Below, in pieces: positions 916 through 57,250 of a DNA stretch of 64,000 nucleotides; positions within the stretch are counted from its first letter, which is position 1; each line of letters begins with the position of its first letter. The notes under the pieces are model-generated. The model made no database searches and was not told the origin of the DNA. It worked only from the letters and a program-made list of their open reading frames with translations. The DNA lies in NCBI RefSeq assembly GCF_055900595.2, contig NZ_CM148325.1, one strand, 5' to 3'. Position numbers and translations under genes: made by a program.

Positions 916-1875
916 ATGGATGCTACCCGGATAACCCTTCTGGCGCTTGATTTGTTCGGCTCGCCGGGCTGGAGCGCCGATAAAGAAATACAGCGGCTGT
1001 ATGCGCTCAGTAATCATGCCGCACGCCATTACCGACGGATTATTCTTTCTAAGCGTCACGGCGGTCAGCGGGTGGTGTTAGCCCCTGATTACTTGCTCAA
1101 AACCGTACAGCGCAACATTCTTAAGAACGTCCTTTCACAATTCCCTCTTTCCCCTTTTGCTACCGCCTACCGACAGGGTCGCCCAATCGTCAGCAACGCG
1201 CAGCCTCACTGCCAACAGCCGCAGATCCTTAAACTCGATATCGAAAACTTTTTCGATAGCATTAGCTGGTTACAGGTCTGGCGTGTGTTTAGCCAGACCC
1301 AGTTGCCACGCAATGTGGTAACCATGCTGACCTGGCTTTGTTGCTATAACGACGCGTTACCGCAGGGGGCGCCAACTTCGCCTGCCATTTCCAATCTTGT
1401 GATGCGCCGTTTTGATGAGTGCATAGGGGAATGGTGTCAGGCTCGGGGAATTACCTACACCCGCTACTGCGATGACATGACCTTTTCTGGTCACTTCAAT
1501 GCCCGCCAGGTTAAAAATAAAGTATGCGGATTGTTAGCGGAGCTGGGCCTGAGCCTCAATCAACGCAAAAGTTGCCTGATAGCTGCCTGTAAGCGCCAGC
1601 AGGTAACCGGGATTGTTGTTAATCACAAGCCACAGCTTGCCCGTGAAGCGCGCCGGGCGCTGCGTCAGGAAGTACACTTGTGCCAAAAATATGGCGTTAT
1701 TTCGCATCTTAGTCATCGTGGTGAACTTGATCCTTCTGGCGATCTCCACGCACAGGCAACGGCGTATCTTTATGCTTTGCAGGGAAGAATAAACTGGTTA
1801 TTGCAAATCAATCCTGAGGATGAGGCCTTTAAACAGGCGAGGGTGAGTGTAAAGCGAATGCTGGTGGCATGGTAA
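916..1875 (+). CDS. retron-type reverse transcriptase (Ec107-like), 319 aa from ATG at 916
   Basis: Track ORF 904..1875; RT motifs QGAPTSPAISNL and YCDDMTFSG (YxDD box); GGAG Shine-Dalgarno 6 nt before the ATG at 916; position between pyrE and slmA matches the described retron-Ec107 site. Confidence 0.85.
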   Translation: MDATRITLLALDLFGSPGWSADKEIQRLYALSNHAARHYRRIILSKRHGGQRVVLAPDYLLKTVQRNILKNVLSQFPLSPFATAYRQGRPIVSNAQPHCQQPQILKLDIENFFDSISWLQVWRVFSQTQLPRNVVTMLTWLCCYNDALPQGAPTSPAISNLVMRRFDECIGEWCQARGITYTRYCDDMTFSGHFNARQVKNKVCGLLAELGLSLNQRKSCLIAACKRQQVTGIVVNHKPQLAREARRALRQEVHLCQKYGVISHLSHRGELDPSGDLHAQATAYLYALQGRINWLLQINPEDEAFKQARVSVKRMLVAW

Positions 1876-6703: not shown

Positions 6704-8468
<1,765 letters not shown>

Positions 8469-8819
8469 AGTAAATAGCTGACTTATGGATGTGCTGGGGA
8501 TTCTATGTATTTAGCTGTGGCTTTACCATTACTTTTCCCGTTTTTGACTTAAATAGCAATTTACCCACCAATTCTTGCTGAACATCTATACTTTTTTTGT
8601 ATTTTTATGCGATTCATTGATTTCCGCAGTACGTGCAGTAAGGAATCGCGGAGCAACAGTGAAAGAATATTGTTGCTAATGATTTTATTTGATTGATTTC
8701 TTTATTGAAAAACAACGATGTGCTTAAAAATCATTCGGATCGGATTGCCGCGAAAGAAGTGATACACTAGCGCGTCAATATCAGTACGGTATCAGTATTC
8801 AGGTAGCTGTTGAGCCTGG

Positions 8820-8831
8820 GGCGGTAGCGTG
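8820..8831 (+). promoter_or_regulatory. ops element (GGCGGTAGCGTG) in the waaQ leader, expected RfaH recruitment site within a JUMPstart-like region
   Basis: Exact ops 12-mer read about 50 nt upstream of waaQ start. Confidence 0.8.
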
Positions 8832-8880
8832 CTTTTTCTGCTTCACCTTAATCGGATAATCTCAACAAAAAGAGTTACTT

Positions 8881-9939
8881 GTGGATAAGCCATTTCGAAG
8901 AATTTTGCTCATTAAGATGCGTTTTCATGGGGATATGTTATTAACTACTCCTGTCATTAGTTCGCTGAAAAAAAATTACCCTGACGCAAAAATCGATGTG
9001 CTGCTTTATCAGGATACCATCCCGATTCTGTCTGAAAATCCAGAGATTAACGCGCTCTACGGCATAAAAAATAAAAAAGCAAAAGCCTCAGAGAAAATTT
9101 CCAACTTTTTTCATCTCATCAAGGTATTACGTGCCAATAAGTATGACCTTATCGTCAATCTTACCGATCAATGGATGGTTGCTATACTGGTTCGCTTATT
9201 AAATGCCCGTGTGAAAATTTCCCAGGATTATCATCATCGGCAGTCTGCTTTTTGGCGTAAAAGCTTCACCCATCTGGTGCCGTTGCAGGGTGGAAATGTG
9301 GTGGAAAGTAACTTATCCGTGCTGACGCCACTGGGTCTCGAATCGTTGGTGAAGCAGACAACGATGAGTTACCCGCCTGCAAGCTGGAAACGAATGCGTC
9401 GCGAACTGGATCACGCAGGTGTTGGACAAAATTATGTGGTTATCCAACCTACCGCGCGGCAAATCTTCAAATGCTGGGACAACGCCAAGTTTTCCGCTGT
9501 GATTGATGCCTTACATACACGTGGCTATGAAGTCGTTCTGACGTCCGGCCCGGATAAAGACGATCTGGCCTGCGTCAATGAAATTGCGCAGGGATGCCAG
9601 ACGCCACCAGTAACGGCGTTGGCCGGAAAGGTAACCTTCCCGGAACTTGGTGCGTTAATCGATCATGCGCAGCTGTTTATTGGCGTTGATTCCGCACCGG
9701 CGCACATTGCCGCTGCAGTTAATACGCCGCTGATATCGCTGTTTGGTGCAACAGACCATATTTTCTGGCGTCCCTGGTCAAATAACATGATTCAATTCTG
9801 GGCGGGAGATTACCGGGAAATGCCAACACGCGATCAGCGTGACCGAAATGAGATGTATCTTTCGGTTATTCCGGCGGCAGATGTCATTGCTGCTGTTGAT
9901 AAATTATTGCCATCCTCCACGACAGGTACGTCGTTATGA
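8881..9939 (+). CDS. waaQ: LPS heptosyltransferase III (GT9)
   Basis: ...MRFHGDMLLTTPVISSLKKNYPDAKIDVLLYQDTIPIL...; start ambiguous (GTG 8881 or ATG 8917). Confidence 0.85.
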   Translation: MDKPFRRILLIKMRFHGDMLLTTPVISSLKKNYPDAKIDVLLYQDTIPILSENPEINALYGIKNKKAKASEKISNFFHLIKVLRANKYDLIVNLTDQWMVAILVRLLNARVKISQDYHHRQSAFWRKSFTHLVPLQGGNVVESNLSVLTPLGLESLVKQTTMSYPPASWKRMRRELDHAGVGQNYVVIQPTARQIFKCWDNAKFSAVIDALHTRGYEVVLTSGPDKDDLACVNEIAQGCQTPPVTALAGKVTFPELGALIDHAQLFIGVDSAPAHIAAAVNTPLISLFGATDHIFWRPWSNNMIQFWAGDYREMPTRDQRDRNEMYLSVIPAADVIAAVDKLLPSSTTGTSL

Positions 9940-11060
9940 TCGTTGCTTTCTGTTTATATAAATATTTTCCCTTTGGCGGTTTGCAACGCGATTTTATGCG
10001 TATTGCTCAGACAGTTGCGGCCCGAGGGCATCATGTTCGGGTTTATGCCCAGTCATGGGAAGGCGAATGCCCTGATGTGTTTGAACTGATCAACGTGCCG
10101 GTTAAGTCGCATACCAATCACGGGCGTAACGCGGAGTATTTTGCCTGGGTGCAAAAACATTTACGCGAGCATCCGGTCGATAAAGTCGTTGGATTCAACA
10201 AAATGCCGGGGCTGGACGTTTATTATGCCGCTGATGTTTGTTATGCCGAGAAAGTGGCGCAGGAGAAAGGCTTTTTCTATCGCCTGACGTCACGTTATCG
10301 CCATTATGCCGCCTTTGAGCGGGCAACCTTTGAACAGGGCAAGCCGACACAGTTGCTGATGCTGACGGACAAGCAAATCGCCGATTTCCAGAAACATTAT
10401 CAGACTGAAGCGGAGCGTTTTCATATTTTGCCTCCGGGGATTTATCCTGACCGTAAATATAGCCAGCAGCCAGCCAATAGCCGTGAAAGCTTTCGTAAGA
10501 AAAATGGAATAACAGAACAACAATATTTATTGTTGCAGGTCGGTTCAGACTTCACGCGTAAAGGTGTCGATCGTTCCATTGAAGCACTTGCTTCGCTCCC
10601 GGATTCACTGCGCCACAACACATTGCTATATGTTGTTGGGCAGGATAAACCGCGAAAATTTGAGGCACTGGCAGAAAAACGCGGCGTGCGCAGTAATGTT
10701 CACTTCTTCTCTGGGCGTAACGATGTCTCGGAATTAATGGCGGCGGCGGATTTATTACTGCATCCTGCCTACCAGGAAGCGGCGGGAATTGTGCTGCTGG
10801 AAGCGATTACTGCAGGATTACCGGTTCTAACAACTGCTGTTTGTGGTTATGCGCATTATATTGTTGACGCGAATTGCGGCGTGGCTATTGCTGAGCCATT
10901 CCGTCAGGAAACATTGAATGAGTTTTTACGCAAAGCGTTAACGCAATCTTCATTGCGCCAGGCCTGGGCGGAAAATGCGCGACATTATGCTGATACACAA
11001 GATTTATACAGTCTGCCAGAGAAAGCGGCGGATATCATAACGGGTGGTCTGGATGGTTGA
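9936..11060 (+). CDS. waaG: LPS core glucosyltransferase I (GT4)
   Basis: 374 aa, [37 protein letters not shown]... Confidence 0.92.
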
Positions 11061-11850
11061 ACTGAAAGAGCCGTTTGCCACGTTATGGCGCGGTAAAGAT
11101 CCTTTTGAGGAAGTTAAAACCTTGCAGGGTGAGGTATTTCGTGAACTGGAAACTCGCCGCACTCTGCGCTTTGAAATGGCGGGCAAAAGCTATTTTCTCA
11201 AATGGCATCGCGGCACGACCCTGAAAGAGATAATCAAAAATTTACTCTCATTGCGGATGCCAGTATTAGGTGCAGACCGTGAATGGAATGCGATTCATCG
11301 GCTGCGGGATGTCGGCGTTGATACTATGTATGGGGTGGCATTCGGCGAAAAAGGCATTAATCCGCTGACCAGAACTTCGTTTATTATTACCGAAGATCTG
11401 ACGCCAACTATCAGTCTGGAAGATTACTGTGCTGACTGGGCGACTAACCCACCAGATGTCCGCGTAAAGCGTATGCTTATTAAACGTGTCGCGACGATGG
11501 TGCGCGATATGCATGCTGCGGGCATTAACCACCGTGACTGTTATATCTGTCATTTCCTGCTGCACTTGCCTTTTTCTGGTAGGGAAGATGAGTTAAAAAT
11601 TTCAGTAATTGACCTGCACCGGGCGCAGCTTCGCACGCGCGTTCCACGTCGTTGGCGCGATAAAGATCTTATTGGGCTTTATTTTTCTTCGATGAATATT
11701 GGCCTGACTCAGCGTGATATCTGGCGATTTATGAAGGTATATTTTGCCGTACCGCTTAAAGACATACTCAAGCAGGAACAAGGGCTGCTGTCGCAAGCAG
11801 AAGCAAAAGCCACGAAAATCAGGGAAAGAACGATTAGAAAATCGTTGTAA
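11053..11850 (+). CDS. waaP: LPS core heptose(I) kinase
   Basis: Start at [21 protein letters not shown]; 265 aa. Confidence 0.92.
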
Positions 11851-11865: not shown

Positions 11866-12882
11866 ATGAGTGCCCACTATTTTAATCCACAAGAGATGAT
11901 CAATAAGACAATCATCTTCGATGAAAGGCCAGAGGCGTCAGTGGCATCATCATTCCATGTTGCTTATGGCATTGATCAGAACTTTCTTTTTGGTTGTGGT
12001 GTTTCAATCACGTCAGTTTTGTTACATAACAACGACGTGAGTTTTGTCTTCCACGTTTTTATTGATGATATCCCTGACGCCGATATCCAGCGTTTATCCC
12101 AATTGGCGAAAAGCTATCATACCTGTATCCAGATCCATCTGGTAAATTGTGAACGGCTTAAGGTATTACCGACGACCAAAAATTGGTCTATTGCCATGTA
12201 TTTCCGTTTTGTAATTGCAGATTACTTTATTGATCAACAAGATAAGATCCTGTACCTGGATGCTGATATCGCCTGTCAGGGAACCTTAAAACCGCTGATA
12301 ACAATGGATCTTGCCAATAACGTTGCTGCTGTTGTTACTGAACGCGATGCTAACTGGTGGTCGTTACGGGCTCAAAGTCTGCAGTGTAATGAACTTGAAA
12401 AGGGTTACTTTAATTCAGGTGTCCTGTTAATTAATACACTAGCGTGGGCGCAGGAGTCCGTTTCTGCTAAAGCGATGTCGATGCTTGCTGATAAAGCCGT
12501 CGTTTCCCGTTTAACCTATATGGATCAAGATATACTAAATCTTATCCTGTTAGGGAAAGTTAAATTCATTGATGCTAAATACAATACGCAATTTAGTTTA
12601 AATTATGAATTAAAAAAATCATTTATTTGTCCAATTAATGATGAAACCGTATTAATTCATTATGTCGGCCCGACAAAACCTTGGCATTACTGGGCCGGTT
12701 ATCCAAGCGCGCAGCCATTTATCAAAGCCAAAGAAGCATCGCCATGGAAAAATGAACCGTTAATGCGGCCAATTAACTCAAATTATGCTCGTTATTGCGC
12801 TAAGCATAATTTTAAACAAAATAAACCAATTAACGGGATAATGAATTATATTTATTATTTTTATTTAAAGATAATAAAATGA
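11866..12882 (+). CDS. waaO: GT8-family LPS alpha-1,3-glycosyltransferase (outer core, WaaO/WaaI-like)
   Basis: GT8 hallmarks (YGIDQNFLFGCGVSI, YLDADI); first gene after waaP as in R1/R4 core loci. Symbol by synteny. Confidence 0.6.
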   Translation: MSAHYFNPQEMINKTIIFDERPEASVASSFHVAYGIDQNFLFGCGVSITSVLLHNNDVSFVFHVFIDDIPDADIQRLSQLAKSYHTCIQIHLVNCERLKVLPTTKNWSIAMYFRFVIADYFIDQQDKILYLDADIACQGTLKPLITMDLANNVAAVVTERDANWWSLRAQSLQCNELEKGYFNSGVLLINTLAWAQESVSAKAMSMLADKAVVSRLTYMDQDILNLILLGKVKFIDAKYNTQFSLNYELKKSFICPINDETVLIHYVGPTKPWHYWAGYPSAQPFIKAKEASPWKNEPLMRPINSNYARYCAKHNFKQNKPINGIMNYIYYFYLKIIK

Positions 12883-12898
12883 CATTGAGAAAAGTTAA

Positions 12899-13894
12899 AT
12901 GAATGAATTTATAAAAGAACGGTTTTCGTATTTAGCAGATAATAAAAAAGAAAACGTCCCAGAGCTAAATGTTTCCTACGGTATCGATAAGAATTTTTTG
13001 TATGGTGCTGGCGTTTCAATTTCTTCCGTTTTGATTAATAATTCAGATATTAATTTTGTCTTTCATGTTTTCACTGATTATGTGGATGATGATTATTTAA
13101 AGTCATTTGATGAAACAGCAAAACAATTTAATACCTCAATTATTGTATATTTAATTGACCCAAAATACTTTGCTGATCTGCCGACGTCACAGTTTTGGTC
13201 GTACGCGACATACTTCAGGGTATTGTCCTTTGAATATCTGAGTGAAAGTATTTCCACACTGCTGTATCTGGATGCCGATGTCGTTTGTAAAGGAAGTCTG
13301 AAACCTCTCACAAAAATTATATTTAAAGATGAGTTTGCTGCGGTTATTCCTGACAATGATAGTACTCAGGCGGCATGTGCAAAACGTCTTAACATTCCCG
13401 AAATGAATGGACGTTATTTCAATGCAGGCGTTATCTATGTCAATCTTAAAAAATGGCATGAAGCAAATTTGACACCGTATTTACTCACGCTTTTACGAGG
13501 GGAAACTAAATATGGCTCTCTTAAATATTTAGATCAGGATGCGTTGAATATCGCATTTAATATGAATAATATCTACCTCGCGAAGGATTTTGATACTATT
13601 TATACCCTGAAAAACGAACTTCATGATCGTAGTCATCGAAAGTATCAGCAAACCATTACCGATAAAACAGTATTGATTCACTATACAGGGATAACTAAAC
13701 CATGGCATAGCTGGGCTGGATATCCGTCTGCATCATACTTTAATATCGCGCGTGAACAATCTCCCTGGAAGAAATATCCTCTTAAAGAGGCGCGGACTGT
13801 TGCAGAAATGCAGAAACAATATAAGCATCTGTTTGCCCATGGTGAGTATATAAAAGGCATAACTTCATTAATTAAGTACAAGCTTAAGAAATAA
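12899..13894 (+). CDS. waaT: GT8-family LPS alpha-1,2-glycosyltransferase (outer core, WaaT/WaaJ-like)
   Basis: GT8 motifs (YGIDKNFLYGAGVSI, YLDADV); second GT8 before waaY. Symbol by synteny. Confidence 0.55.
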   Translation: MNEFIKERFSYLADNKKENVPELNVSYGIDKNFLYGAGVSISSVLINNSDINFVFHVFTDYVDDDYLKSFDETAKQFNTSIIVYLIDPKYFADLPTSQFWSYATYFRVLSFEYLSESISTLLYLDADVVCKGSLKPLTKIIFKDEFAAVIPDNDSTQAACAKRLNIPEMNGRYFNAGVIYVNLKKWHEANLTPYLLTLLRGETKYGSLKYLDQDALNIAFNMNNIYLAKDFDTIYTLKNELHDRSHRKYQQTITDKTVLIHYTGITKPWHSWAGYPSASYFNIAREQSPWKKYPLKEARTVAEMQKQYKHLFAHGEYIKGITSLIKYKLKK

Positions 13895-13903
13895 ATTACT
13901 CTT

Positions 13904-14596
13904 ATGATTACAAGTATACGTTATCGCGGCTTCTCATTTTATTACAAAGATAATGATAATAAATATAAAGAAATCTTTGATGAAATACTGGCCTATAATT
14001 TTAAAACAGTAAAAGTATTACGTAATATTGATGATACCAAAGTATCGTTGATTGATACGAAATATGGTCGCTATGTTTTTAAAGTCTTTGCTCCGAAAAC
14101 GAAAAGGAATGAACGTTTTTTAAAATCTTTTGTAAAAGGTGACTACTATCAGAATTTGATCGTTGAAACCGATCGTGTCAGAAGTGCAGGTCTTACTTTT
14201 CCTAATGATTTTTATTTTCTGGCTGAGCGTAAAATTTTCAACTATGCCAGTGTTTTTATCATGCTTATCGAGTATGTCGAGGGCGTAGAGCTCAATGATA
14301 TGCCGATTATTCCAGAAAATGTTAAAGCAGAAATTAAGGCTTCAATGGAAAAATTGCATGCCTTAAATATGCTATCGGGCGACCCACACCGGGGTAACTT
14401 TATCGTTAGTAAAGATGGTGTCAGGATAATTGACCTATCCGGTAAAAGCTGTACGGCAGAGCGTAAAGCTCGTGATCGTCTGGCCATGGAACGTCACCTG
14501 GGTATTGCCAACGAAATAAAAGATTATGGCTACTATTCAGTAATCTACAGAACCAAACTACGCAAATTTATTAAAAAATTAAAAGGCAAAGCGTAA
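13904..14596 (+). CDS. waaY: LPS core heptose(II) kinase WaaY
   Basis: 230 aa, MITSIRYRGFSFYYKDNDNKYKEIFDEILAYNFKTVKVLRN...; kinase-like with DPHRGNF motif. Confidence 0.85.
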   Translation: MITSIRYRGFSFYYKDNDNKYKEIFDEILAYNFKTVKVLRNIDDTKVSLIDTKYGRYVFKVFAPKTKRNERFLKSFVKGDYYQNLIVETDRVRSAGLTFPNDFYFLAERKIFNYASVFIMLIEYVEGVELNDMPIIPENVKAEIKASMEKLHALNMLSGDPHRGNFIVSKDGVRIIDLSGKSCTAERKARDRLAMERHLGIANEIKDYGYYSVIYRTKLRKFIKKLKGKA

Positions 14597-14621
14597 ACCA
14601 CACAGTCAAAACGGAACCAAC

Positions 14622-15650
14622 ATGGATTTATTAGCTGAGAGTATTACTGAAGTCGCTGTCTCTGGGGAAATTGCTAACACCGATCGTGTGTTAAATATCG
14701 CTTACGGTATTGACCGTAATTTTTTATTTGGTGCGGCAGTATCTATGCAATCAGTTGTTATGCATAACCCAGACCTTGCGGTTAAGTTTCATCTCTTTAC
14801 CGACTACATTGATGAAGATTATCTACAACGTGTTAACGCTTTTACCAGCAAAAATGCTAACGTTGAAGTAAGAATTTATAAAGTCTCCAGTGTCTTTATT
14901 GATATCTTCCCCAGCCTGAAACAGTGGTCTTATGCAACATTCTTCCGTTTAGTTGCGTTCCAGTATCTGAGTGAAACTATTGAAAATCTGTTATATATCG
15001 ATGCTGATGTCATCTGTAAAGGCTCATTAGCTGGATTGCTTGATATTAATTTTGATGGCGATAAATTCGCAGCTGTTATTAAAGATGTGCCTTTTATGCA
15101 GGAAAAACCAGCGAAGCGTCTGGCTATAGAGGGGCTTCCAGGGAATTATTTCAACGCCGGTGTAGTATATCTGCAGCTTGAAGCGTGGGCGAAAAATGAT
15201 TTTATGAATAAAGCCATTGCTATGCTGGCAAGTGACCCGCAGCACACGAAGTATAAATGCCTTGATCAGGATATTTTAAATATTCTGTTCTTTGGTCATT
15301 GTATTTTTATTAGCGGCGATTATGATTGCTTTTATGGCATTGACTATGAGTTAAAAAATAAAAGCGATGAAGATTATAAAAAGACCATTACCGATGATAC
15401 TAAGCTGATTCATTATGTTGGCGTAACGAAGCCCTGGAACGACTGGACGAATTATCCCTGCCAGAAGTATTTTAATGAGGCTTATCAAGCTTCTTGCTGG
15501 AATGATGTGGCGTTTATTCCAGCCACGAATGAAAAACAGTATCAAGTGAAATCCAGACATTTGAAAAGAAATGGTAATATTGCATCTTCATTTTACTATT
15601 TCATGCTCTATTATAGTAAGAAAATAGCGCGTAAGCATTTTTCCAAATAA
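14622..15650 (+). CDS. waaW: GT8-family LPS alpha-1,2-glycosyltransferase (WaaW-like)
   Basis: Third GT8 paralog (YGIDRNFLFGAAVSM, YIDADV) located after waaY as in R1/R4 loci. Confidence 0.5.
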   Translation: MDLLAESITEVAVSGEIANTDRVLNIAYGIDRNFLFGAAVSMQSVVMHNPDLAVKFHLFTDYIDEDYLQRVNAFTSKNANVEVRIYKVSSVFIDIFPSLKQWSYATFFRLVAFQYLSETIENLLYIDADVICKGSLAGLLDINFDGDKFAAVIKDVPFMQEKPAKRLAIEGLPGNYFNAGVVYLQLEAWAKNDFMNKAIAMLASDPQHTKYKCLDQDILNILFFGHCIFISGDYDCFYGIDYELKNKSDEDYKKTITDDTKLIHYVGVTKPWNDWTNYPCQKYFNEAYQASCWNDVAFIPATNEKQYQVKSRHLKRNGNIASSFYYFMLYYSKKIARKHFSK

Positions 15651-15681
15651 TTATTAAGACTAATCATCCAGGGATTTTTTA

Positions 15682-16455
15682 ATGAACTTGCCCATTTATA
15701 TTGTCTCACTTAAAAGAGATATTGAGCGAAGAAATAAAATAAATGATGTCTTTCATCGATTAAACATTAATTTTGATTTTTTTGATGCCATAGATGCTAA
15801 AGATCCTCAAAATAAAGAAATTATTAATGAAATGAGATTAAGTGGTGTCGGCGCAGAAATGACTGATGGAGAAATTGCTTGTACGTTAAGTCATCAGCTT
15901 ATATATCAGGATATGATAGATAAAAATATAGAATGGGCAGTCATTCTAGAGGACGATGTTATCGTCAATGAGAAATTTAAAAATTTCCTTCAATACTTTA
16001 ATCCTTCTGAAAAAGACAAGTTAAAATATAATAATTTGTATTTGCTTGGAGGTCAGAAAGGATTACATGATTATCCAGTATTGGGGCAAAGCCTTTTTAG
16101 TAAAGTTAAGGTAAGTACTTGTATTTTTCGTCGTGTTAATTTTAATAAAAATAAAATTCGTCGTACATGTTCATATTTGATGAATAACGATATGGCACTA
16201 AAGTTGCTCAAATTGACAAAGGATTATGGCACCTATCGAGCTGATAGCTGGAAGTTAATGCATCAACATAATATTATAAAAGATTTTTATTTAGACGAAA
16301 TAATATTACATCCTATTTTAAATGAGTTTAATAGTCACCTTGAAAGTGAAAGGCTTTTAATATCGGAAAAAAAACAACCCAGGACAAGGCTTCAGAAAAA
16401 AATGAAGTTTATACGTTCCTGGATAAAGGTGGCTTTTTTTTCTCTTTTGAAATGA
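15682..16455 (+). CDS. waaX: GT25-family beta-glycosyltransferase (Lic2A/LgtB-like); position of waaX (R4) or waaV (R1)
   Basis: N-terminus MNLPIYIVSLKRDIERRNKIN... resembles GT25 family; lies immediately before waaL. waaX preferred over waaV on remembered family assignment only. Confidence 0.45.
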   Translation: MNLPIYIVSLKRDIERRNKINDVFHRLNINFDFFDAIDAKDPQNKEIINEMRLSGVGAEMTDGEIACTLSHQLIYQDMIDKNIEWAVILEDDVIVNEKFKNFLQYFNPSEKDKLKYNNLYLLGGQKGLHDYPVLGQSLFSKVKVSTCIFRRVNFNKNKIRRTCSYLMNNDMALKLLKLTKDYGTYRADSWKLMHQHNIIKDFYLDEIILHPILNEFNSHLESERLLISEKKQPRTRLQKKMKFIRSWIKVAFFSLLK

Positions 16456-16489
16456 GATTGTTAATTTCAATTTATTGTGAGATATTAAC

Positions 16490-17743
16490 GTGGAAGTAAA
16501 AATTGAGCAATTTCGAAATAATAGCTGTAATTTTATTTTTTTATTATATTTAATCGGTTTGTTGTTTGTGCCAATTGATCTAAATATTACCACTAAAATA
16601 ATTAATGCTACAGGTGCATTTTCTCTTTTTTTATTAATTGTAAATAACAAGCATAATTATAATAAAAATATCATTATATTAATTCTTGGCTTACTTCTTT
16701 TGGGTGCAATGAACCTGATATGGTATGAGTTTTATAAAACAGAAGATGTAGTATATAGAAATGCTTATCGAGGCTATCTTGAGTCTGGAAAACTATTAGT
16801 ATTTAGCTCGTTGACATTTTTATTACTAAGTAAAAATAAATTCAGGCAAAATGAAAAGCTACATTTTATTTCAGCTATCTTAGTTCAAATAATCATGCTA
16901 TGTAGAGCATATTATCAAGGGATATATTTGCATGCAGACCGCATTCCCCTCTCCGCCATGAATGGGAATATTGGTCAGATGGGGGCAGCGACTATTGCGG
17001 CTTATGTGATTACATTCACTACTTTATATTCTTCAATTGTATTCATCAAAATGCAATCGAAATATAAATGGTTTCTATTTTATGCTAACTTTGCTTTAAG
17101 CTTTGCAGCAGTAATGATGACAGGAACGCGTGCGGCAATTTTCACATTCCCACTTATGATTATGGTCATATTATTTCTTCAGCATCGTGATCAAAAAGTG
17201 TTTTTATTTAAAGGATTGAGTGGTGTTTTTATATTGCTACTTGCTTGTGGTTTGATATTTAATAAGGAAATTGAGAGGCGAATTAATTCATTAAAAGCTG
17301 ATGTTATTTCATATGCTACAAAAAATAACAGTCAATCCTCGGTCGGAGCACGTTTTGCAATGGTTAATGCAGGAATTAAAGGAAGTCCTGATGGTTTTAA
17401 TTGGCAATCTCTTGAGCAGCGTGCTGAAAAGATAAAAGCATTAAGTGCAGAAAATAATATTTATAGTGGAGCTTTATTATTCCTTGATGTACATATGCAT
17501 AATGAAATTGTTGAAGCTCTTTCCACGAAAGGGAAAATTGGTCTTCTTGTTCTTATTATGTTCTATGTTGCAATGATCTACTACTGTATCCGGGAGAAAA
17601 AATATATACTTTTGGTTTTCCCTGCTTCTATTATGTTATTTGGCATTAGTGATGTCATTACGCATGCTAAACCAATACCGGCATCGTGGATTGTGTGCCT
17701 CTTCCTGTCTATATCGTTTTTGAGTAAAAAAGAACCACAATAA
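16490..17743 (+). CDS. waaL: O-antigen ligase WaaL
   Basis: 417-aa polytopic membrane protein, AT-rich, last gene of the waaQ operon; GTG start. Confidence 0.8.
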   Translation: MEVKIEQFRNNSCNFIFLLYLIGLLFVPIDLNITTKIINATGAFSLFLLIVNNKHNYNKNIIILILGLLLLGAMNLIWYEFYKTEDVVYRNAYRGYLESGKLLVFSSLTFLLLSKNKFRQNEKLHFISAILVQIIMLCRAYYQGIYLHADRIPLSAMNGNIGQMGAATIAAYVITFTTLYSSIVFIKMQSKYKWFLFYANFALSFAAVMMTGTRAAIFTFPLMIMVILFLQHRDQKVFLFKGLSGVFILLLACGLIFNKEIERRINSLKADVISYATKNNSQSSVGARFAMVNAGIKGSPDGFNWQSLEQRAEKIKALSAENNIYSGALLFLDVHMHNEIVEALSTKGKIGLLVLIMFYVAMIYYCIREKKYILLVFPASIMLFGISDVITHAKPIPASWIVCLFLSISFLSKKEPQ

Positions 17744-17758
17744 TAAAAACGTTGATTA

Positions 17759-17785
17759 AGTAAGTGGGTATAATGCCCACTTACT
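17759..17785. terminator. bidirectional terminator hairpin between convergent waaL and waaC
   Basis: Perfect 10-bp stem agtaagtggg / cccacttact with 7-nt loop, A/T-rich flanks. Confidence 0.6.
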
Positions 17786-17790
17786 ATTTA

Positions 17791-18750
17791 TTAAATCAAT
17801 GTAATTTCTTTATAAACAGCCGCTGCTTCTAAATTATTTAAACTCTTTAGCGGAGCCCTACAAACCATCTGATTCTTCCCATACCCGCCAATTAATCCCG
17901 GATCGGTTGGCCCATAAACCGTGATATTGGGTCTATCCAGTGCCGCCGTTAAATGGCTTAACCCCGTATCCACCGACACCACAAATTTAGCCCCCGCCAG
18001 CACACAAGCAACGCCTTCCAGACTCATCTTCGGCAATACGTCGACATAATCAAATCCTTCCGCCAGTCTTTTTGCCCGCTCTTCTTCATGCGGCGCGCCC
18101 CACGGAAGTTTAATGCGAATCCCTGAATCTGCCAGTAAACCAATCAACTCTCGCCAGTGTGCTTCCGGCCAGTGTTTATCATCACGGGTTGTTGCATGAA
18201 GAAATACGGCATATTCGCCAGCATCTGTCGGCAGGTTCGTCAGGAAATGCTGCGCAATGGCATAATCGCCCTGAGTCTGCGGTTTGCTGTAACCCAGACT
18301 TTTGGCAAACAGTTCGCGGGTGCGTTCTACGGCGTGCTGCTGTTTTGCAATATGATGCTTACGATTGTAAAACAGGCTGGCTAAGGGTTCGCGAGCGGTT
18401 TGCCAGTCCATTCCATGCTTTACGCCATGCGCCAGACGCGTCACCAGCGCCGCGCTTTTTACCAGCCCCTGAGCGTCGATAATTGCGTCATAGTTCTCTG
18501 CTTGTAGCGCTTCACGAAACGCTTTCCGTTCAGCTTTTATGGGGGCCGAGAACCAGGCTTTACGCCAGCGACGTATTGCCACAGGAATAACTCGCTCAAC
18601 GGCAGCGTGCCAGGAAGGAATCTGTGCGAACCCTTCTTCCACCACCCAGTCAAACTTAATCCCTGGGATTGCCTGCTGGGCATCAGTGAGTGCGGGCAGC
18701 GTATGGAGAACATCGCCCATCGACGATGTTTTAACGATCAGAACCCGCAT
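17791..18750 (-). CDS. waaC: LPS heptosyltransferase I
   Basis: 319 aa, MRVLIVKTSSMGDVLHTLPALTDAQQAIPG... Confidence 0.93.
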   Translation of the reverse strand: MRVLIVKTSSMGDVLHTLPALTDAQQAIPGIKFDWVVEEGFAQIPSWHAAVERVIPVAIRRWRKAWFSAPIKAERKAFREALQAENYDAIIDAQGLVKSAALVTRLAHGVKHGMDWQTAREPLASLFYNRKHHIAKQQHAVERTRELFAKSLGYSKPQTQGDYAIAQHFLTNLPTDAGEYAVFLHATTRDDKHWPEAHWRELIGLLADSGIRIKLPWGAPHEEERAKRLAEGFDYVDVLPKMSLEGVACVLAGAKFVVSVDTGLSHLTAALDRPNITVYGPTDPGLIGGYGKNQMVCRAPLKSLNNLEAAAVYKEITLI

Positions 18751-20742: not shown

Positions 20743-20955
20743 AACTGTAACCTTCGAATTATGGAGTCAGAGACAATCTCAGACACGAATGCTTCTATCA
20801 TATCACTACACGGCGTTCGCTTCAGCCATTCGCCAAAAGTGAGATTGATGGACGTTATTTATCCTGAATTTTGCAGAAGTGTTAACGCGTCATCTCGTCG
20901 CAACCTATAAGTTTGGGTAATATGTGCTGGAATTTGCCCTGTCTGGAGAATCGCA

Positions 20956-23602: not shown

Positions 23603-24637
23603 ATGATGAACAGCACCAATAAACTCAGTGTTATTATCCCGTTATATAATGCGGGAGATGATTTCCGTACTTGCATGGAATCTTTAATCGCGCAAACCTG
23701 GACTGCTCTGGAAATCATTATTATTAACGATGGTTCAACGGATAATTCTGTTGAAATAGCAAAGCATTACGCGGAAATCTATCCGCACGTTCGTTTGCTG
23801 CATCAGGCGAATGCTGGCGCATCGGTAGCGCGTAATCGTGGGATCGAGGCAGCGACGGGTAAATATGTCGCTTTTGTCGATGCTGATGATGAGGTCTATC
23901 CCACCATGTACGAAACGCTGGTGACGATGGCCGAGCAGGACAACCTTGACGTGGCGCAGTGCAACGCTGACTGGTGTTTTCGTGAAACGGGAGAAACCTG
24001 GCAGTCCATCCCCACCGATCGCCTTCGCTCAACCGGCGTATTAACCGGCCCGGACTGGCTGCGAATGGGGCTTTCTTCCCGCCGTTGGACTCATGTTGTC
24101 TGGATGGGCATTTATCGTCGTGATGTCATTGCTAAAAATAACATTAAATTTATTGCCGGATTACATCATCAGGATATTGTCTGGACAACAGAATTTATGT
24201 TTAACGCGCAACGCGTGCGATATACCGAGCAATCGTTATATAAATATTATTTGCATAATACGTCAGTGAGCCGATTGAATAGACAGGGAAATAAAAACCT
24301 TAATTATCAACGCCACTATATTAAGATTACCCGACTGTTGGAAAAGTTAAATCGCGATTACGCAGACAGAATAGTGATTTACCCGGAATTTCATCAACAA
24401 ATAACTTACGAAGCATTACGTGTTTGCCATGCGGTACGTAAAGAGCCAGATATTATTACCCGCCAACGGATGATTGCTGAGATATTTACTTCCGGTATGT
24501 ATAAGCGCCTGATTTCCAATGTACGCAGCATAAAGGTGGGTTATCAGGCGTTACTGTGGTCTTTCCGCTTATGGCAATGGCGCGACAAAACGCGGTCGCA
24601 CCATCGCATTACGCGTAGCGCCTTTAATTTGCGCTAG
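23603..24637 (+). CDS. waaH: GT2-family LPS glycosyltransferase WaaH (YibD)
   Basis: 344 aa, MMNSTNKLSVIIPLYNAGDDF...INDGSTDNS...VDADD. Confidence 0.85.
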   Translation: MMNSTNKLSVIIPLYNAGDDFRTCMESLIAQTWTALEIIIINDGSTDNSVEIAKHYAEIYPHVRLLHQANAGASVARNRGIEAATGKYVAFVDADDEVYPTMYETLVTMAEQDNLDVAQCNADWCFRETGETWQSIPTDRLRSTGVLTGPDWLRMGLSSRRWTHVVWMGIYRRDVIAKNNIKFIAGLHHQDIVWTTEFMFNAQRVRYTEQSLYKYYLHNTSVSRLNRQGNKNLNYQRHYIKITRLLEKLNRDYADRIVIYPEFHQQITYEALRVCHAVRKEPDIITRQRMIAEIFTSGMYKRLISNVRSIKVGYQALLWSFRLWQWRDKTRSHHRITRSAFNLR

Positions 24638-34480: not shown

Positions 34481-36135
34481 TAAGGAATCATCCACGTTAA
34501 GACATAGGCCTGAAGCGTGGTGATCACGCCCACCATACAGGTGAAGATCAGGCTGTGTTTGACAGTAAAGCGGAACAAATCAGACTCTTTGCCCACCAGT
34601 CCTACCGCCGCACAGGCGATAGCGATAGATTGCGGAGAGATCATTTTGCCGGTGACACCACCGGTGGTGTTGGCAGCAACCAGCAACAGGTCAGAAACGC
34701 CAATTTGTTGTGCGGCGGTAGCCTGCAAAGCGGCAAACAAAGCATTAGATGACGTATCCGACCCGGTCAGGAATACCCCAAGCCAGCCGAGGAACGGCGA
34801 GAAGAAGGTGAATGCATGACCGGTATGCGCCAGTGCCAGCGCCAGTGTTGATGACAGTCCGGAATAGTTCGAAATAAAGGCGAATGCCAGCACCATACCG
34901 ATGGAGTAGATAGGCAGAGCCAGTTCTTTCAGCGTGCTGCCGAAGGTGCTGATAGCGTCAGATGGTTTCATCTTCAGCCAGACAATTGAGAGCAGGGCAG
35001 CAAAAAGAATGGCGGTACCGGTAGCAGAGAACCAGTCGAACTTAAACACGGCGGCGTAAGCTGTCGCTTCGCTGACCACTGGCGGCATACGGGCAACCAG
35101 TTTATCGAGGTACGGCACCGGAATATTGATCACCCACTCATACAGCGCGCCACCCGATGCGAACAGGGCTTTAAACGGCGGGATACTCCACAGTGTTACG
35201 GTAGCGGTCAGGAACAGGAACGGTGTCCAGGCACGTAATACCTGACCCGCGGTGTAACCGGTGTGGGCCAGCGTCATATCAACCTGTGACGCCCCCAAAT
35301 CACCAAAACGGAATACGCGCACCGGCTGCCAGCGTTTGAGGAACAGCGTCAGGCAGAGCAGTGATACCAGCGAAGAGATAATGTCTGGCAGTTCCGGCCC
35401 AATGAAGTTAGAGCTGAGGTATTGAGCGATGGCAAACGAGCCGCCCGCAACCACGACCGCAGGCCAGGTTTCTTTGATACCGCGCCAGCCGTCCATAATC
35501 GCCATAATCCAGAACAGCACGATAATGGTCATAAACGGTAGCTGACGCCCCACCATCTGGCCAATCTCAAAGCTGTCGATGCCTGTTACCTGCCCGGCGA
35601 CCAGAATCGGAATACCCATCGCACCGAATGCTACTGGCGCGGTGTTAACAATCAGGCACAGCCCGGCGGCGTACAGCGGTTTAAAGCCCAGGCCGACCAG
35701 CAATGCGGCGGTAATTGCTACCGGTGCGCCAAATCCTGCGGCCCCTTCGAGGAACGCGCCGAAACAGAAACCGACGATCAGCATTTGCAGGCGCTGGTCA
35801 GGGGTTATCGAAAGAATAGACGAGCGGATGATGTCAAACTGCCCGGTTTTCACCGAGATCTTATAGACGAACACCGCTGCAATAATGATCCACGCGATGG
35901 GCCACAAACCGTAGAAGAAGCCATAAACCACCGAGGCCAGCGCGTTAGCGACCGGCATTTTATAGAACAGCAAAGCCACGGCAAGGGCGATTGCCACCGT
36001 CCACGAGGCGGCGACGTATCCTTTCAGTTTGAGCTTAATCAGCGCAAAGAAGAAAAACAGAATGGGAAGCGATGCTATCAGGCTGGAAAGCCAGATATTC
36101 CCGGCGGGATCATAGTTTTGTTGCCAGAGATTCAT
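34480..36135 (-). CDS. lldP: L-lactate permease
   Basis: Start at [29 protein letters not shown]; 551 aa. Confidence 0.93.
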
Positions 36136-39500: not shown

Positions 39501-41363
39501 AGTCACCGTATCAGTCAGGTTAGTGATGTTGGTGGTGTTAGTTGCCACGTTATCGTTAGTGGTTTTCAACTGAGAACCGTTAACGGCGTCGGTGCTGGTG
39601 TCAGAGAGCTCGCCAGCGGTGACGTTAGTGATTTTGTTGGTGGCGTTGGTGCCGTGTGCAGCGGTGAATGCGCCTGCGGCATCGTCCCATTTCAGGGCGT
39701 CTTCACTAAGGTCAGTCACCGTATCAGTCAGGTTAGTGATATTGGTGGTGTTGGTCGCCACATCGTCCTTGGTCGCTTTCAGCTGAGAACCATTAACGGC
39801 GTCGGTGCTGGTGTCAGAGAGCTCGCCAGCGGTGACGTTAGTGATTTTGTTGGTGGCGTTGGTGCCGCGTGCAGCGGTGAATGCGCCTGCGGCATCGTCC
39901 CATTTCAGGGCGTCTTCACCGAGGTTAGTCACCGTATCAGTCAGGTTAGTGATATTAGTGGTGTTGCCAGCCACTTCGCTCGTCAGGTTAGTGATGTTGG
40001 TGGTGTTTGCCGCCACATCGTCCTTGGTCGCTTTCAGCTGAGAACCGTTGACGGCGTCGGTGCTGGTGTCAGAGAGGTCGCCAGCGGTGACATTGGTGAT
40101 TTTGCTAGTGGCGTTGTTGCCATGGGCAGCGCTGTATTTGCCATTGGTTTGGTCCCATTGCAGAGTGTTTTCATCAAGTACAGTGAGCGCATCGCCAACG
40201 TTATTTTTGTTACCATTTTTTAAGTTGTAGGCGGGGGCTTTAACTGTACCGTCGTCAACGTTTACCGATGCGCCTCCACCCAGTCGTTTTGCTACCGAGT
40301 CGCTGATGGCATAAAGCTGCGAGCCATTAATGGCGTCATTGCTGTCAGCTTTGATGGTGCCATTTTTCACATTCACGATCTTGCGTTTTAATGAGTCATT
40401 ACCGACAGAAACGCTATCGTCCAGATCCGCAATCGAACCTGCCCCCAACGCGACGGCGTTAATACCGTTGGCGCTGGTATTACTACCAAGCGCAAGACTA
40501 TTATCGCCCGTGACAACACTGGTTTTACCTAAAGCAATAGAGTTTAAGCCACTCGATTGGCTACCATTACCCAGAACGATAGCATCTGTACCATTAGCTT
40601 TGTTGCCCTGACCTATGGCAATTTCGCTATCTGCCAAAGCCTGGCTGCCATTGCCCAATACGATAGTATTGGTTTTATCGGCAAGGCTCCCGGAGCCCAG
40701 CGCCATGCTATTAGTCCCTTTTGCCTTCGCATTATTGCCAATGGCGGTAGCATTTTCAGCGGCTTCGGTGTTAGTGCCCATCGCGATGGAGTCCGTTCCT
40801 GATGCATTTGCCAATCGTCCTAATGCAAGAGCATTAGCAGCACTTGCTACCGTATCTTTGCCCAACGCCATGGCACCTTCACCTTTAGCTTGAGCAGAAT
40901 TCCCCAGTGCAAGTGTATAATCGCTGGTCGCTTTAGCTGCACTGCCGATGGCGATAGCTCGGCTGCCCGTTGATACCGTTGATTGCCCTAAGCCAACCGA
41001 TCTTTCTCCTGATGAGTTACTTGAGAAGCCAATTGCCGTACTGCCCACCCCGGCGGTCGAACCTATTCCTACCGCAACACTTCCTGTATTCTCTGTTCCT
41101 GAACCCTTTGGCTCTGATGATGCGACAGCACCTTTACCAATGGCAATCCAGTCATTACTGAGTGGCGTTGCCTCTGCGCTTTTACCACCGTCAAGTGAAA
41201 CCGAAGCATTGGCCCCAACGGGTGAGAGTAGCCCACCCGCAACCAGCGCGGAAATTAACAGCTTACTACGCCCGCTCTTTTTTCCACGACTCTTCGCCGT
41301 TTCGCTGGCAACGCTATAGCTGCCCGTCGCTGGATTCCAGATAACTTTAAAAATTTTGTTCAT
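36552..41363 (-). CDS. trimeric autotransporter adhesin (YadA-like; UpaG/EhaG/SadA family), 1603 aa
   Basis: N-terminal extended signal peptide [21 protein letters not shown]...; long repetitive Ser/Thr/Asn/Gly-rich passenger with NGSQL-type head/neck motifs; C-terminal YadA-type anchor ending ...[36 protein letters not shown]. Confidence 0.85.
39166..40060. repeat. tandem array of about 4 copies of a 213-bp (71-aa) unit inside the adhesin gene
   Basis: Plus-strand artefact ORFs start at 39379, 39592 and 39805 (213-nt spacing) with near-identical translations; the adhesin shows repeated [71 protein letters not shown] blocks. Confidence 0.85.
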
Positions 41364-56830: not shown

Positions 56831-57048
56831 AATTCAAATGTCTACGTCTTGAATGACTGAATATTGATTGAACTTAATTACGAGTCTCCTCGCATCTTTT
56901 CAACAAGTTACTGCACACCGTTATTCTTCTTCCGAACGGCATTCCTGAGTCAACTTTATCTCCCTGACGGCCCATATAAATCGCGCTATCGTGATTGTTA
57001 TTGCTAAGTGTGTGTGTATCGTGTGTATAATCATGGAAGGGCAGGGAT

Positions 57049-57234: not shown

Positions 57235-57250
57235 AATTTCAGGAGGCAAT

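What the first reader, a model, noticed from the sequence alone, without database searches (positions are those of the whole stretch)
11866..17743. Outer-core LPS cassette is R1/R4-like rather than K-12-like, and visibly AT-rich
After waaQ-waaG-waaP the order is GT8, GT8, waaY kinase, GT8, GT25-like transferase, waaL. That matches the waaO-waaT-waaY-waaW-(waaV or waaX)-waaL arrangement of R1/R4 cores, not the K-12 waaS-waaB-waaO-waaR-waaY-waaZ-waaU order. The Lic2A/LgtB-like N-terminus of the penultimate gene favours waaX (R4), but that rests on my recollection of family assignment. The segment is conspicuously AT-rich next to a GC-balanced backbone, consistent with a horizontally exchanged cassette; the waaL allele determines O-antigen attachment.
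Basis: partly seen in the sequence, partly recalled or inferred. Interest (0 to 1): 0.55.

Follow-up and report, generated by a model that had tools for sequence, protein, structure and literature searches.

The report
Ordinary R4-type E. coli LPS core locus
This stretch is an intact copy of the well-known R4-type gene set that builds the outer core sugars of the E. coli lipopolysaccharide, found in about one in eight sequenced E. coli strains, so it is correctly read but ordinary.

Summary
Window 11866-17743 carries six intact + strand genes after waaQ-waaG-waaP: GT8, GT8, WaaY kinase, GT8, GT25 and an O-antigen ligase. This is the waaO-waaT-waaY-waaW-waaX-waaL order.

- **Typing:** of nine published core-typing primers, only the R4 pair matches. 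It matches exactly and gives the expected 380 bp product.
- **Shared genes:** WaaO, WaaT, WaaY and WaaW are 93-99.6% identical to an R1 strain (Nissle 1917). They are only 31-55% identical to K-12, R2 and R3 proteins.
- **Type-specific genes:** the GT25 protein has no counterpart in R1, R2, R3 or K-12 loci. R1 carries a GT2 gene there instead. The ligase is 35% identical to R1 WaaL.
- **R1/R4 difference:** it is confined to a 2.3 kb block (about 15553-17849), running from the 3' end of waaW to the 3' end of waaC.
- **Prevalence:** 690 of 5,426 complete E. coli genomes carry this block.
- **Composition:** the cassette has GC 0.346 against 0.513 for the rest of the window. The same dip occurs in all five core types and in other genera, and it is already published, so it does not distinguish R4.

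Verdict: already known, low interest. One modest extra: the waaX-waaL pair also sits together in Citrobacter, Cedecea, Pluralibacter, a Leclercia-like contig and Shimwellia.

The parts
8793..8831 (+). JUMPStart element containing the ops site GGCGGTAGCGTG (8820-8831), upstream of waaQ. This is the RfaH antitermination signal for the long operon.
   Evidence: Rfam RF01707 at 55.2 bits against a gathering score of 35. Exact ops match.
8881..9939 (+). waaQ (HepIII transferase), first gene of the operon
   Evidence: PGAP rfaQ in the identical genome. 98.6% aa identity to R1, 98.9% to R3, 73% to K-12 and R2.
9936..11060 (+). waaG (adds GlcI)
   Evidence: 98.4% aa identity to R1, 89.8% to K-12.
11053..11850 (+). 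waaP (HepI kinase)
   Evidence: 98.5% aa identity to R1, 84.9% to K-12.
11866..12882 (+). waaO, GT8, 338 aa. First outer-core alpha-1,3 hexosyltransferase acting on GlcI.
   Evidence: Pfam GT8 plus GT8C. NCBIfam PRK15171 at 611 bits, above the 461 cut-off. 97.9% identity to R1 WaaO, 51% to K-12, 55% to R3. DADI at residue 132 and HYVGPTKPW at residue 265 are present.
12899..13894 (+). waaT, GT8, 331 aa (alpha-1,2-galactosyltransferase in R1/R4)
   Evidence: Pfam GT8 plus GT8C. 99.4% identity to the R1 gene at the same position, 43-45% at best to K-12, R2 and R3 GT8s. Motifs are intact.
13904..14596 (+). waaY, HepII kinase, 230 aa
   Evidence: NCBIfam RfaY equivalog at 401 bits against a 248 cut-off. 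99.6% identity to R1, 52-54% to K-12, R2 and R3. DPHRGN and IDLS motifs present.
14622..15650 (+). waaW, GT8, 342 aa (alpha-1,2-galactosyltransferase acting on Gal). Its last ~32 codons lie inside the R4-specific block.
   Evidence: Pfam GT8 plus GT8C. 93.0% identity to R1 WaaW, 98.2% to another R4 strain. Cluster members are named WaaW. The junction is visible in the alignment.
15491..15870 (.). In-silico R4 typing amplicon. Primer R1R4-R matches at 15491-15510 and primer R4-F matches in reverse at 15852-15870. Product length is 380 bp.
   Evidence: Both primers match exactly. The seven R1-, R2-, R3- and K-12-specific primers do not match even with 4 mismatches allowed. Primers and expected size come from PMC13293308.
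15553..17849 (.). R4-specific replacement block: 3' end of waaW, waaX, waaL, the terminator and the 3' end of waaC.
   Evidence: Identity to R1 loci drops from 98-100% to about 42% across this block and recovers on both sides. Found in 690 of 5,426 complete E. coli genomes.
15682..16455 (+). waaX, GT25, 257 aa. The beta-galactosyltransferase that makes the R4-specific side branch.
   Evidence: Pfam PF01755, E 4.9e-50. Matches PDB GT25 chains at E 1.7e-12. No hit in R1, R2, R3 or K-12 loci. Source names include 'Beta-1,4-galactosyltransferase'. Carries the R4-F primer site. EDD motif at residue 90.
16490..17743 (+). waaL, R4-type O-antigen ligase, 417 aa, GTG start
   Evidence: Pfam Wzy_C. Matches PDB 7TPG WaaL. 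98.6% identity to another R4 strain, 35% to R1 WaaL, 31% to K-12 WaaL, none to R2 or R3. Motif H-N-x9-G-x2-G at residue 337 and GTRA at residue 212.
17759..17785 (+). 12-pair hairpin between the convergent genes waaL and waaC. Likely a bidirectional terminator.
   Evidence: Terminator scan. The sequence is conserved in the other R4 strain and absent from R1. Its function is inferred.
17791..18750 (-). waaC (HepI transferase), convergent with waaL. Its last ~20 codons belong to the R4-specific block.
   Evidence: 94-95% identity to all core types, and homology to R1 resumes at about 17850.

Best explanation
This is a complete, intact R4-type waa outer-core region of an Escherichia coli chromosome.

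**Transcription (inferred from anatomy).** One long transcript starts upstream of waaQ. It carries a JUMPStart/ops element that recruits RfaH, runs through waaQ-G-P-O-T-Y-W-X-L, and ends at a hairpin facing waaC.

**Assembly (inferred from homology and published R1/R4 work).**
- WaaG puts GlcI on HepII.
- WaaO adds the second hexose in alpha-1,3 linkage.
- WaaT adds Gal in alpha-1,2 linkage.
- WaaW adds a second Gal in alpha-1,2 linkage.
- WaaX, the GT25 enzyme, adds the beta-linked Gal side branch that defines R4.
- WaaP and WaaY phosphorylate HepI and HepII, and WaaQ adds HepIII.
- The R4-type WaaL then ligates Und-PP-linked O-antigen, or ECA in rough strains, to the finished core. The assumed attachment point is the beta-Gal branch.

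**What is shown here.** Gene identities, gene order, intactness, catalytic motifs, core-type assignment and population frequency.

**What is inferred.** The enzymatic steps, from experiments on the R1 and R4 prototype strains.

**How R4 relates to R1.** R4 differs from R1 only by a 2.3 kb block (waaX-waaL in place of waaV-waaL). The block is bounded by homology inside waaW and waaC, so switching between the two types needs only one homologous-recombination replacement.
For: - **Gene families and order:**
- **In-silico PCR:** only the R4 primer pair matches, and the product is 380 bp as published. The same primer set correctly types my K-12, R1, R2 and R3 reference loci.
- **Protein comparison:** WaaO 97.9%, WaaT 99.4%, WaaY 99.6% and WaaW 93.0% to R1. 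Best matches to K-12, R2 and R3 are 31-55%. WaaX has no homologue in the four other core types. WaaL is 35% identical to R1, 31% to K-12, and has no hit in R2 or R3.
- **R1 position:** R1 has a GT2 gene at the waaX position.
- **Other R4 genomes:** they are collinear, with 95-99% aa identity.
- **Frequency:** 690 of 5,426 genomes (12.7%) carry the R4 block. This matches the published R4 frequency of 13.0% (PMC8715443).
- **Regulatory elements:** JUMPStart/ops and the terminator hairpin.
- **Motifs:** catalytic motifs are intact in all six proteins.
- **Breakpoints:** about 15552 on the left and about 17850 on the right.
- **Published function:** WaaX and WaaV as the R4 and R1 determinants, and the assumed beta-Gal attachment site, are in PMC3526765, PMC7504096 and PMC13293308.
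Against: - I made no direct alignment to the prototype R4 sequence of strain F2513. It is not in the collections available, and no database entry read carried the literal name WaaX.
- The assignment therefore rests on primers, family, gene order and exclusion of the other four types.
- This allele of the R4 block is a minority one. Only 11 of 694 records are at least 99% identical, and WaaX is 94.9% identical to the commoner allele.
- Sugar donor and linkage specificity cannot be read from sequence. The literature read here disagrees on the WaaX linkage: beta-1,4 in PMC13293308 and beta-1,3 in PMC3526765.
- PGAP names waaO a 'galactosyltransferase'. From memory, the R1/R4 literature describes it as a glucosyltransferase.
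Confidence: 0.95

Rival explanations
1. It is an R1-type core locus, with waaV and the R1 waaL.
For: The first 63% of the cassette (waaO-waaT-waaY and most of waaW) is 98.9-99.4% identical in DNA to R1 strains.
Against: - The R1-F primer is absent even with 4 mismatches allowed.
- No WaaV homologue lies in the locus. R1 WaaV hits only waaH, at 32%.
- The penultimate gene is GT25, not GT2.
- WaaL is only 35% identical to R1 WaaL.
- DNA identity to R1 falls to about 42% across 15553-17849.
Confidence: 0.01
2. The strain is an R1/R4 hybrid like ECOR46. It would carry a second waaV-waaL(R1) set elsewhere in the genome, so the core made would be a mixture.
For: Such a hybrid has been described (PMC13293308). 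A few genomes hold two places matching the R4 block.
Against: - The window holds a single uninterrupted locus, with no IS element and no R1-specific sequence.
- The identical genome E400634 has one place only for the cassette.
- I did not search the rest of that genome for R1 waaV.
Confidence: 0.02
3. It is an R4-like locus whose minority waaX/waaL allele has shifted specificity, giving a sixth, undescribed core structure.
For: WaaX is only 94.9% identical to the commoner E. coli allele. Only 11 of 694 records match the block at 99% or more, and 78 records fall at 90-95%. So there are several allele lineages.
Against: - Divergence of 3-5% is ordinary within-species variation.
- Length, gene order and all motifs are conserved.
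- The exact protein is seen on about 343 contigs.
- There is no gene gain or loss.
Confidence: 0.02

Closest known systems
E. coli R4 core-type waa locus (prototype F2513): waaQGPOTYWXL
   Same: - Gene order, families and orientation are the same.
- waaL sits in the waaQ operon, convergent with waaC.
- The GT25 gene waaX is present.
- The R4 typing amplicon is exactly 380 bp.
- The locus is collinear with 690 other complete genomes, at 93-100% DNA identity in the R4 block.
   Different: Nothing structural differs. This is a minority allele: the R4 block is about 97% identical in DNA to most R4 genomes, and WaaX is 94.9% identical in protein to the commoner allele.
E. coli R1 core-type waa locus (F470, Nissle 1917, E. 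coli B): waaQGPOTYWVL
   Same: waaQ, G, P, O, T and Y are 97.9-99.6% identical in protein and WaaW is 93%. Operon layout and flanks are identical.
   Different: A 2.3 kb block is replaced. R1 has the GT2 gene waaV (327 aa) and an R1 WaaL that is 35% identical. Here there is the GT25 gene waaX (257 aa) and the R4 WaaL. The last ~32 codons of waaW and ~20 codons of waaC also differ.
E. coli K-12, R2 and R3 waa loci
   Same: They share the flanking genes hldD-waaF-waaC and waaA, the inner-core genes waaQGP, GT8 outer-core transferases, a WaaY kinase, and a low-GC central region of 0.33-0.35.
   Different: - They have different gene sets: waaS, B, Z and U or K in K-12 and R2, and waaI, J and D in R3.
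- Their waaL lies in the hldD operon.
- Outer-core proteins are only 31-55% identical.
- WaaQ, G and P of K-12 and R2 are only 73-90% identical.
GT25 LOS galactosyltransferases (the Lic2A/LgtB/LgtE family of Haemophilus and Neisseria; Pfam PF01755)
   Same: WaaX matches PF01755 over residues 4-186 (E 4.9e-50). It matches solved GT25 chains over its N-terminal ~100 residues.
   Different: It is a distant relative only. It acts on an enterobacterial core acceptor. Linkage and donor are known from the literature, not from this analysis.
waaX-waaL modules in other Enterobacterales (Citrobacter amalonaticus, Cedecea, Pluralibacter gergoviae, a Leclercia-like contig, Shimwellia blattae)
   Same: In all five, the GT25 gene is immediately followed by a ligase gene convergent with waaC. 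C. amalonaticus and the Leclercia-like contig have the whole GT8-GT8-waaY-GT8-GT25-waaL order.
   Different: WaaX is 49-70% identical and WaaL 49-64% identical. The upstream transferases differ in Cedecea (GT4 plus GT8), Pluralibacter (no third GT8) and Shimwellia (a waaZ-like gene).

Membership tests
E. coli R4 core type | Gene order waaQ-G-P-O-T-Y-W-X-L, with waaL in the waaQ operon and convergent with waaC | tested here: met
   ORF map, Pfam and NCBIfam assignments, and PGAP annotation of the identical genome.
E. coli R4 core type | waaX (GT25 beta-galactosyltransferase) present between waaW and waaL | tested here: met
   PF01755, E 4.9e-50. The R4-F primer, designed in waaX, matches exactly. 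Sources name the protein beta-1,4-galactosyltransferase.
E. coli R4 core type | Positive R4-specific PCR and negative R1, R2, R3 and K-12 PCRs | tested here: met
   In-silico PCR gives a 380 bp product from R1R4-R plus R4-F. No other primer matches with 4 or fewer mismatches. The primer set correctly types four control loci.
E. coli R4 core type | R4-specific waaL allele, distinct from the R1, R2, R3 and K-12 alleles | tested here: met
   35% identity to R1, 31% to K-12, no hit to R2 or R3. 98.6% identity to the ligase of another waaX-bearing strain. I made no direct comparison with F2513 WaaL.
E. coli R4 core type | Sequence identity to the prototype F2513 waa locus | not testable with these tools
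   The prototype sequence is not in the available collections. The Amor et al. typing paper could not be opened.
E. coli R4 core type | Core oligosaccharide with a beta-Gal side branch on GlcII and a Gal-alpha1,2-Gal main chain (the chemotype) | not testable with these tools
   This needs MS or NMR, or an R4-specific antibody. The structure is cited in PMC7504096.
E. coli R1 core type | waaV (GT2 beta-glucosyltransferase) and the R1 waaL | tested here: not met
   No WaaV homologue in the locus. The R1-F primer is absent. WaaL is 35% identical.
E. coli K-12 core type | waaS-B-O-J(R)-Y-Z-U, with waaL in the hldD operon | tested here: not met
   The gene set differs. Best protein identities are 31-52%. 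The K12-F and K12-R primers are absent.
RfaH-dependent (JUMPStart/ops) operon | JUMPStart RNA with an ops element in the 5' leader | tested here: met
   Rfam RF01707 at 55.2 bits. GGCGGTAGCGTG at 8820-8831. Dependence on RfaH itself was not tested.

The most novel reading that the evidence does not exclude
The waaX-waaL pair may be an old 'attachment-site module' shared among genera of Enterobacterales. The transferase that makes the side branch and the ligase that uses it would travel together.

Supporting observations:
- The E. coli R4 ligase is closer to the ligases of Citrobacter, Cedecea, Pluralibacter and a Leclercia-like contig (60-64% identity) than to E. coli's own R1 ligase (35%).
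- C. amalonaticus has a fully syntenic R4-like locus.

This qualifies a published statement (PMC8715443) that no homologue of the variable central waa region exists outside Escherichia and Shigella. It also offers a lead on where the R1/R4 family came from.
Probability: 0.5. Interest if true: 0.3.

Novelty: already known. Interest (0 to 1): 0.1.

Why it matters
Core type matters in practice. It fixes the acceptor to which O-antigen and ECA are ligated. It is a receptor for many phages, and it correlates with phylogroup: R4 is enriched in groups D, F and G (PMC13293308).

For this window the result is a correct routine annotation: the strain has an R4 core. Nothing in it is surprising to a specialist. 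The GC dip, the R1/R4 relationship and the typing scheme are all published.

The one point of mild wider interest is that the R4-like organisation, and in particular the waaX-waaL pair, is conserved in several other enterobacterial genera. This bears on the unresolved origin of the variable waa region.

Tried and rejected
- **Database names:** I looked for the literal label 'WaaX' or the F2513 reference among cluster members of the GT25 protein. Only generic names appeared ('glycosyltransferase family 25', 'beta-1,4-galactosyltransferase').
- **Older PCR primers:** I tried to open Amor et al. 2000 for the original core-type primers. It is not held.
- **NCBIfam:** it has no model for the GT25 protein or for this ligase, so I used Pfam and PDB sequence matches instead.
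- **R1 reading:** rejected.
- **K-12, R2 and R3 readings:** rejected.
- **Low GC as a mark of R4 or of recent import:** rejected. All core types and the orthologous loci in other genera share it.
- **Second ops-like match at 34714:** it lies antisense inside lldP and is taken as chance.
- **Retron RNA:** an Rfam search next to the reverse transcriptase gene found nothing.
- **First literature searches:** two calls failed only because a search term was too short.

Full report
**What is there**

The window is E. coli chromosome. The cassette is 100% identical to strain E400634, a human stool isolate from Kenya.

After waaA (on the - strand) and a 412 bp intergenic region comes a run of + strand genes:
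- waaQ 8881-9939
- waaG 9936-11060
- waaP 11053-11850
- six ORFs whose limits are exactly those given in the finding: 11866-12882, 12899-13894, 13904-14596, 14622-15650, 15682-16455 and 16490-17743

Downstream, on the - strand, lie waaC, waaF and hldD.

Family assignments of the six ORFs:

| ORF | Assignment | Evidence |
|---|---|---|
| 1, 2, 4 | Glyco_transf_8 plus Glyco_transf_8C | E 3.5e-80, 8.1e-72, 7.2e-72 |
| 3 | RfaY/WaaY equivalog | 401 bits, cut-off 248 |
| 5 | Glyco_transf_25 | E 4.9e-50; solved GT25 chains at E 1.7e-12 |
| 6 | Wzy_C ligase | E 7.4e-8; solved WaaL 7TPG at E 2.6e-8 |

All six align full length to their counterparts and keep the expected motifs:
- D-x-D and H-x-x-G-x-x-K-P-W in the three GT8s
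- DPHRGN and IDLS in WaaY
- EDD in the GT25 protein
- GTRA and H-N-x9-G-x2-G in the ligase

**Which core type**

I used three independent lines of evidence.

*Typing primers.* I took the nine primers of Trofimova et al. 2025 (PMC13293308).
- Only R1R4-R (15491-15510, +) and R4-F (15852-15870, -) match, both exactly.
- The product is 380 bp, which is the published R4 size.
- The R1-, R2-, R3- and K-12-specific primers find nothing, even with four mismatches allowed.
- The same primers correctly type my four control loci: MG1655 as K-12, Nissle 1917 as R1, O157:H7 TR01 as R3, and XYEH3934 as R2.

*Protein comparison with the control loci.*

| Window protein | R1 | Best in K-12, R2, R3 |
|---|---|---|
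| WaaO | 97.9% | 51-55% |
| WaaT | 99.4% | 43-45% |
| WaaY | 99.6% | 52-54% |
| WaaW | 93.0% | 38% |
| GT25 protein | no hit at E below 1e-3 | no hit at E below 1e-3 |
| Ligase | 35% | 31% (K-12); no hit in R2 or R3 |

R1 carries a 327 aa GT2 protein (WaaV) at the position of the GT25 gene. In the whole window that WaaV finds only the unrelated GT2 gene waaH.

*Population pattern.*
- 690 of 5,426 complete genomes match the whole cassette.
- About 1,840 more, including Nissle 1917 and E. coli B derivatives, match only the first 63%. That is the part R1 and R4 share.
- A collinear R4 genome (A1_136) gives 95-99% protein identity for all six genes.

Neither is met. This is an R4 core locus.

**Anatomy of the R1/R4 difference**

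I aligned the window with two R1 loci and one R4 locus.
- R1 homology ends at about 15552. That is inside waaW, about 32 codons before its stop.
- Homology resumes at about 17850, inside waaC, about 20 codons before its stop.
- Between these points DNA identity to R1 is about 42%. Outside them it is 95-99%.

The type-determining unit is therefore a 2.3 kb block: the waaW tail, waaX, waaL, a 12-pair hairpin at 17759-17785, and the waaC tail. It lies between two homology arms, which is the arrangement expected for exchange by homologous recombination.

The block occurs in 692 genomes. Only 11 records are at least 99% identical to this allele, 605 are at 95-99% and 78 at 90-95%. So this is a minority allele of an ordinary polymorphism.

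**How it works**

A JUMPStart RNA with the ops site GGCGGTAGCGTG lies at 8793-8831 (Rfam 55 bits). The operon is therefore of the RfaH-antiterminated kind. Tight gene spacing and the single hairpin after waaL fit one transcript covering waaQ to waaL.

The enzymatic steps are inferred from homology and from published work on R1 and R4:
- WaaG, WaaO, WaaT and WaaW build the Glc-Glc-Gal-Gal main chain.
- WaaX adds the beta-Gal side branch, where WaaV adds beta-Glc in R1 (PMC3526765; PMC13293308).
- WaaP, WaaY and WaaQ decorate the heptoses.
- WaaL ligates O-antigen or ECA, by assumption to the beta-Gal branch (PMC7504096).

Two caveats apply. The two papers disagree on the WaaX linkage (beta-1,4 versus beta-1,3). 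PGAP's name for waaO ('galactosyltransferase') is a family-level label, and donor specificity cannot be read from sequence.

**Base composition and horizontal transfer**

The cassette has GC 0.346 against 0.513 for the rest of the window, and it is the lowest 5.9 kb stretch in the 64 kb. waaX is 0.298 and waaL 0.321, and GC3 falls to 0.26. waaQ, waaG and waaP are intermediate at 0.47-0.48.

This is not specific to R1 or R4. The outer-core blocks of other loci all lie in the same range:

| Locus | Outer-core GC |
|---|---|
| K-12 | 0.333 |
| R1 | 0.353 |
| R2 | 0.354 |
| R3 | 0.331 |
| C. amalonaticus | 0.324 |
| Cedecea | 0.352 |

The dip is already described in the literature (PMC8715443). 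So AT-richness is a standing property of these genes across genera, not a sign of recent import.

Better evidence for exchange between strains comes from two observations:
- the sharp breakpoints described above;
- the shared outer-core genes (11866-15552) are 98.3-99.4% identical between this strain and three others, while the flanking waaA, waaQGP and waaC are only 95-96.4% identical.

**Beyond E. coli**

Relatives of WaaX occur in other Enterobacterales at 49-70% identity. I examined five loci: Cedecea, C. amalonaticus, Pluralibacter gergoviae, a Leclercia-like gut contig and Shimwellia blattae.
- In all five, the GT25 gene is immediately followed by a ligase gene convergent with waaC.
- C. 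amalonaticus and the Leclercia-like contig have the full GT8-GT8-waaY-GT8-GT25-waaL order.
- Their ligases are 49-64% identical to the R4 ligase, well above the 35% of E. coli's own R1 ligase.

The transferase and the ligase thus appear to be inherited as a pair. This mildly qualifies the statement in PMC8715443 that no homologue of the central region exists outside Escherichia and Shigella. It is the only part of this analysis that goes slightly beyond textbook knowledge.

**Verdict**

The locus is a standard R4 core type, found in 12.7% of complete genomes here and 13.0% in PMC8715443. It is already known and of low interest.

The remaining gap is a direct comparison with the F2513 prototype sequence and chemical confirmation of the core structure. 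Neither was possible with these tools.

Noticed in passing
window 916-1875 (+): A 319 aa reverse transcriptase lies between pyrE and slmA. Its best PADLOC match is the retron RT_Ec107-like model (441 bits). pyrE and slmA are directly adjacent in O157:H7 TR01, so this is an insertion. No Rfam RNA family matched the flanks. From memory, retron Ec107 was originally described at this pyrE-ttk site, so it is probably a known element.
   Followed up: partly
loci L009 (8001-10064), L011 (8001-10065), L012 (7001-9077), L013 (7001-9062), L014 (7001-9088): The waaX-waaL pair is adjacent and convergent with waaC in Cedecea, Citrobacter amalonaticus, Pluralibacter gergoviae, a Leclercia-like contig and Shimwellia blattae. 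Their ligases are 49-64% identical to the R4 ligase, against 35% for E. coli R1 WaaL. A 2021 paper stated that no homologue of the central waa region exists outside Escherichia and Shigella.
   Followed up: partly
window 6704-11850 and 17850-18750, compared with 11866-15552: The shared outer-core genes are more similar between strains (98.3-99.4% DNA identity) than the flanking waaA, waaQGP and waaC (95-96.4%). Part of waaA is only 90-92% identical. This suggests the cassette has spread across backgrounds more recently than its flanks diverged, or that this strain carries divergent flank alleles.
   Followed up: partly
window 15553-17849: Three of the 695 matches to the R4-specific block lie on records labelled as plasmids, and one genome holds two places. 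I did not examine them. They could be misassigned contigs, or ECOR46-like duplications.
   Followed up: no
window 20743-20955: There is no htrL/yibB gene between hldD and kbl here, nor in Nissle 1917 or the R4 strain A1_136. K-12 MG1655 has htrL next to hldD, and O157:H7 and C. amalonaticus have yibB/htrL between hldD and kbl.
   Followed up: no
window about 36552-41129 (-): A 4.6 kb gene is annotated as a YadA-like trimeric autotransporter adhesin, followed by a DUF3251 gene, between lldP and yibL.
   Followed up: no
window about 56847-57459 (+): A hicA-hicB toxin-antitoxin pair and a small hypothetical gene lie between aldB and yiaW.
   Followed up: no
window 34714-34725 (+): A second exact match to the ops pattern (GGCGGTAGCCTG) lies antisense inside lldP. 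It is probably chance, although two matches in the window exceed the shuffle expectation of 0.08.
   Followed up: partly
window 23603-24637 (+): waaH, a GT2 glucuronosyltransferase acting on HepIII of the LPS, sits apart from the waa cluster in a moderately low-GC patch of about 0.44. It is the only window match to R1 WaaV, at 32% over 139 aa.
   Followed up: no
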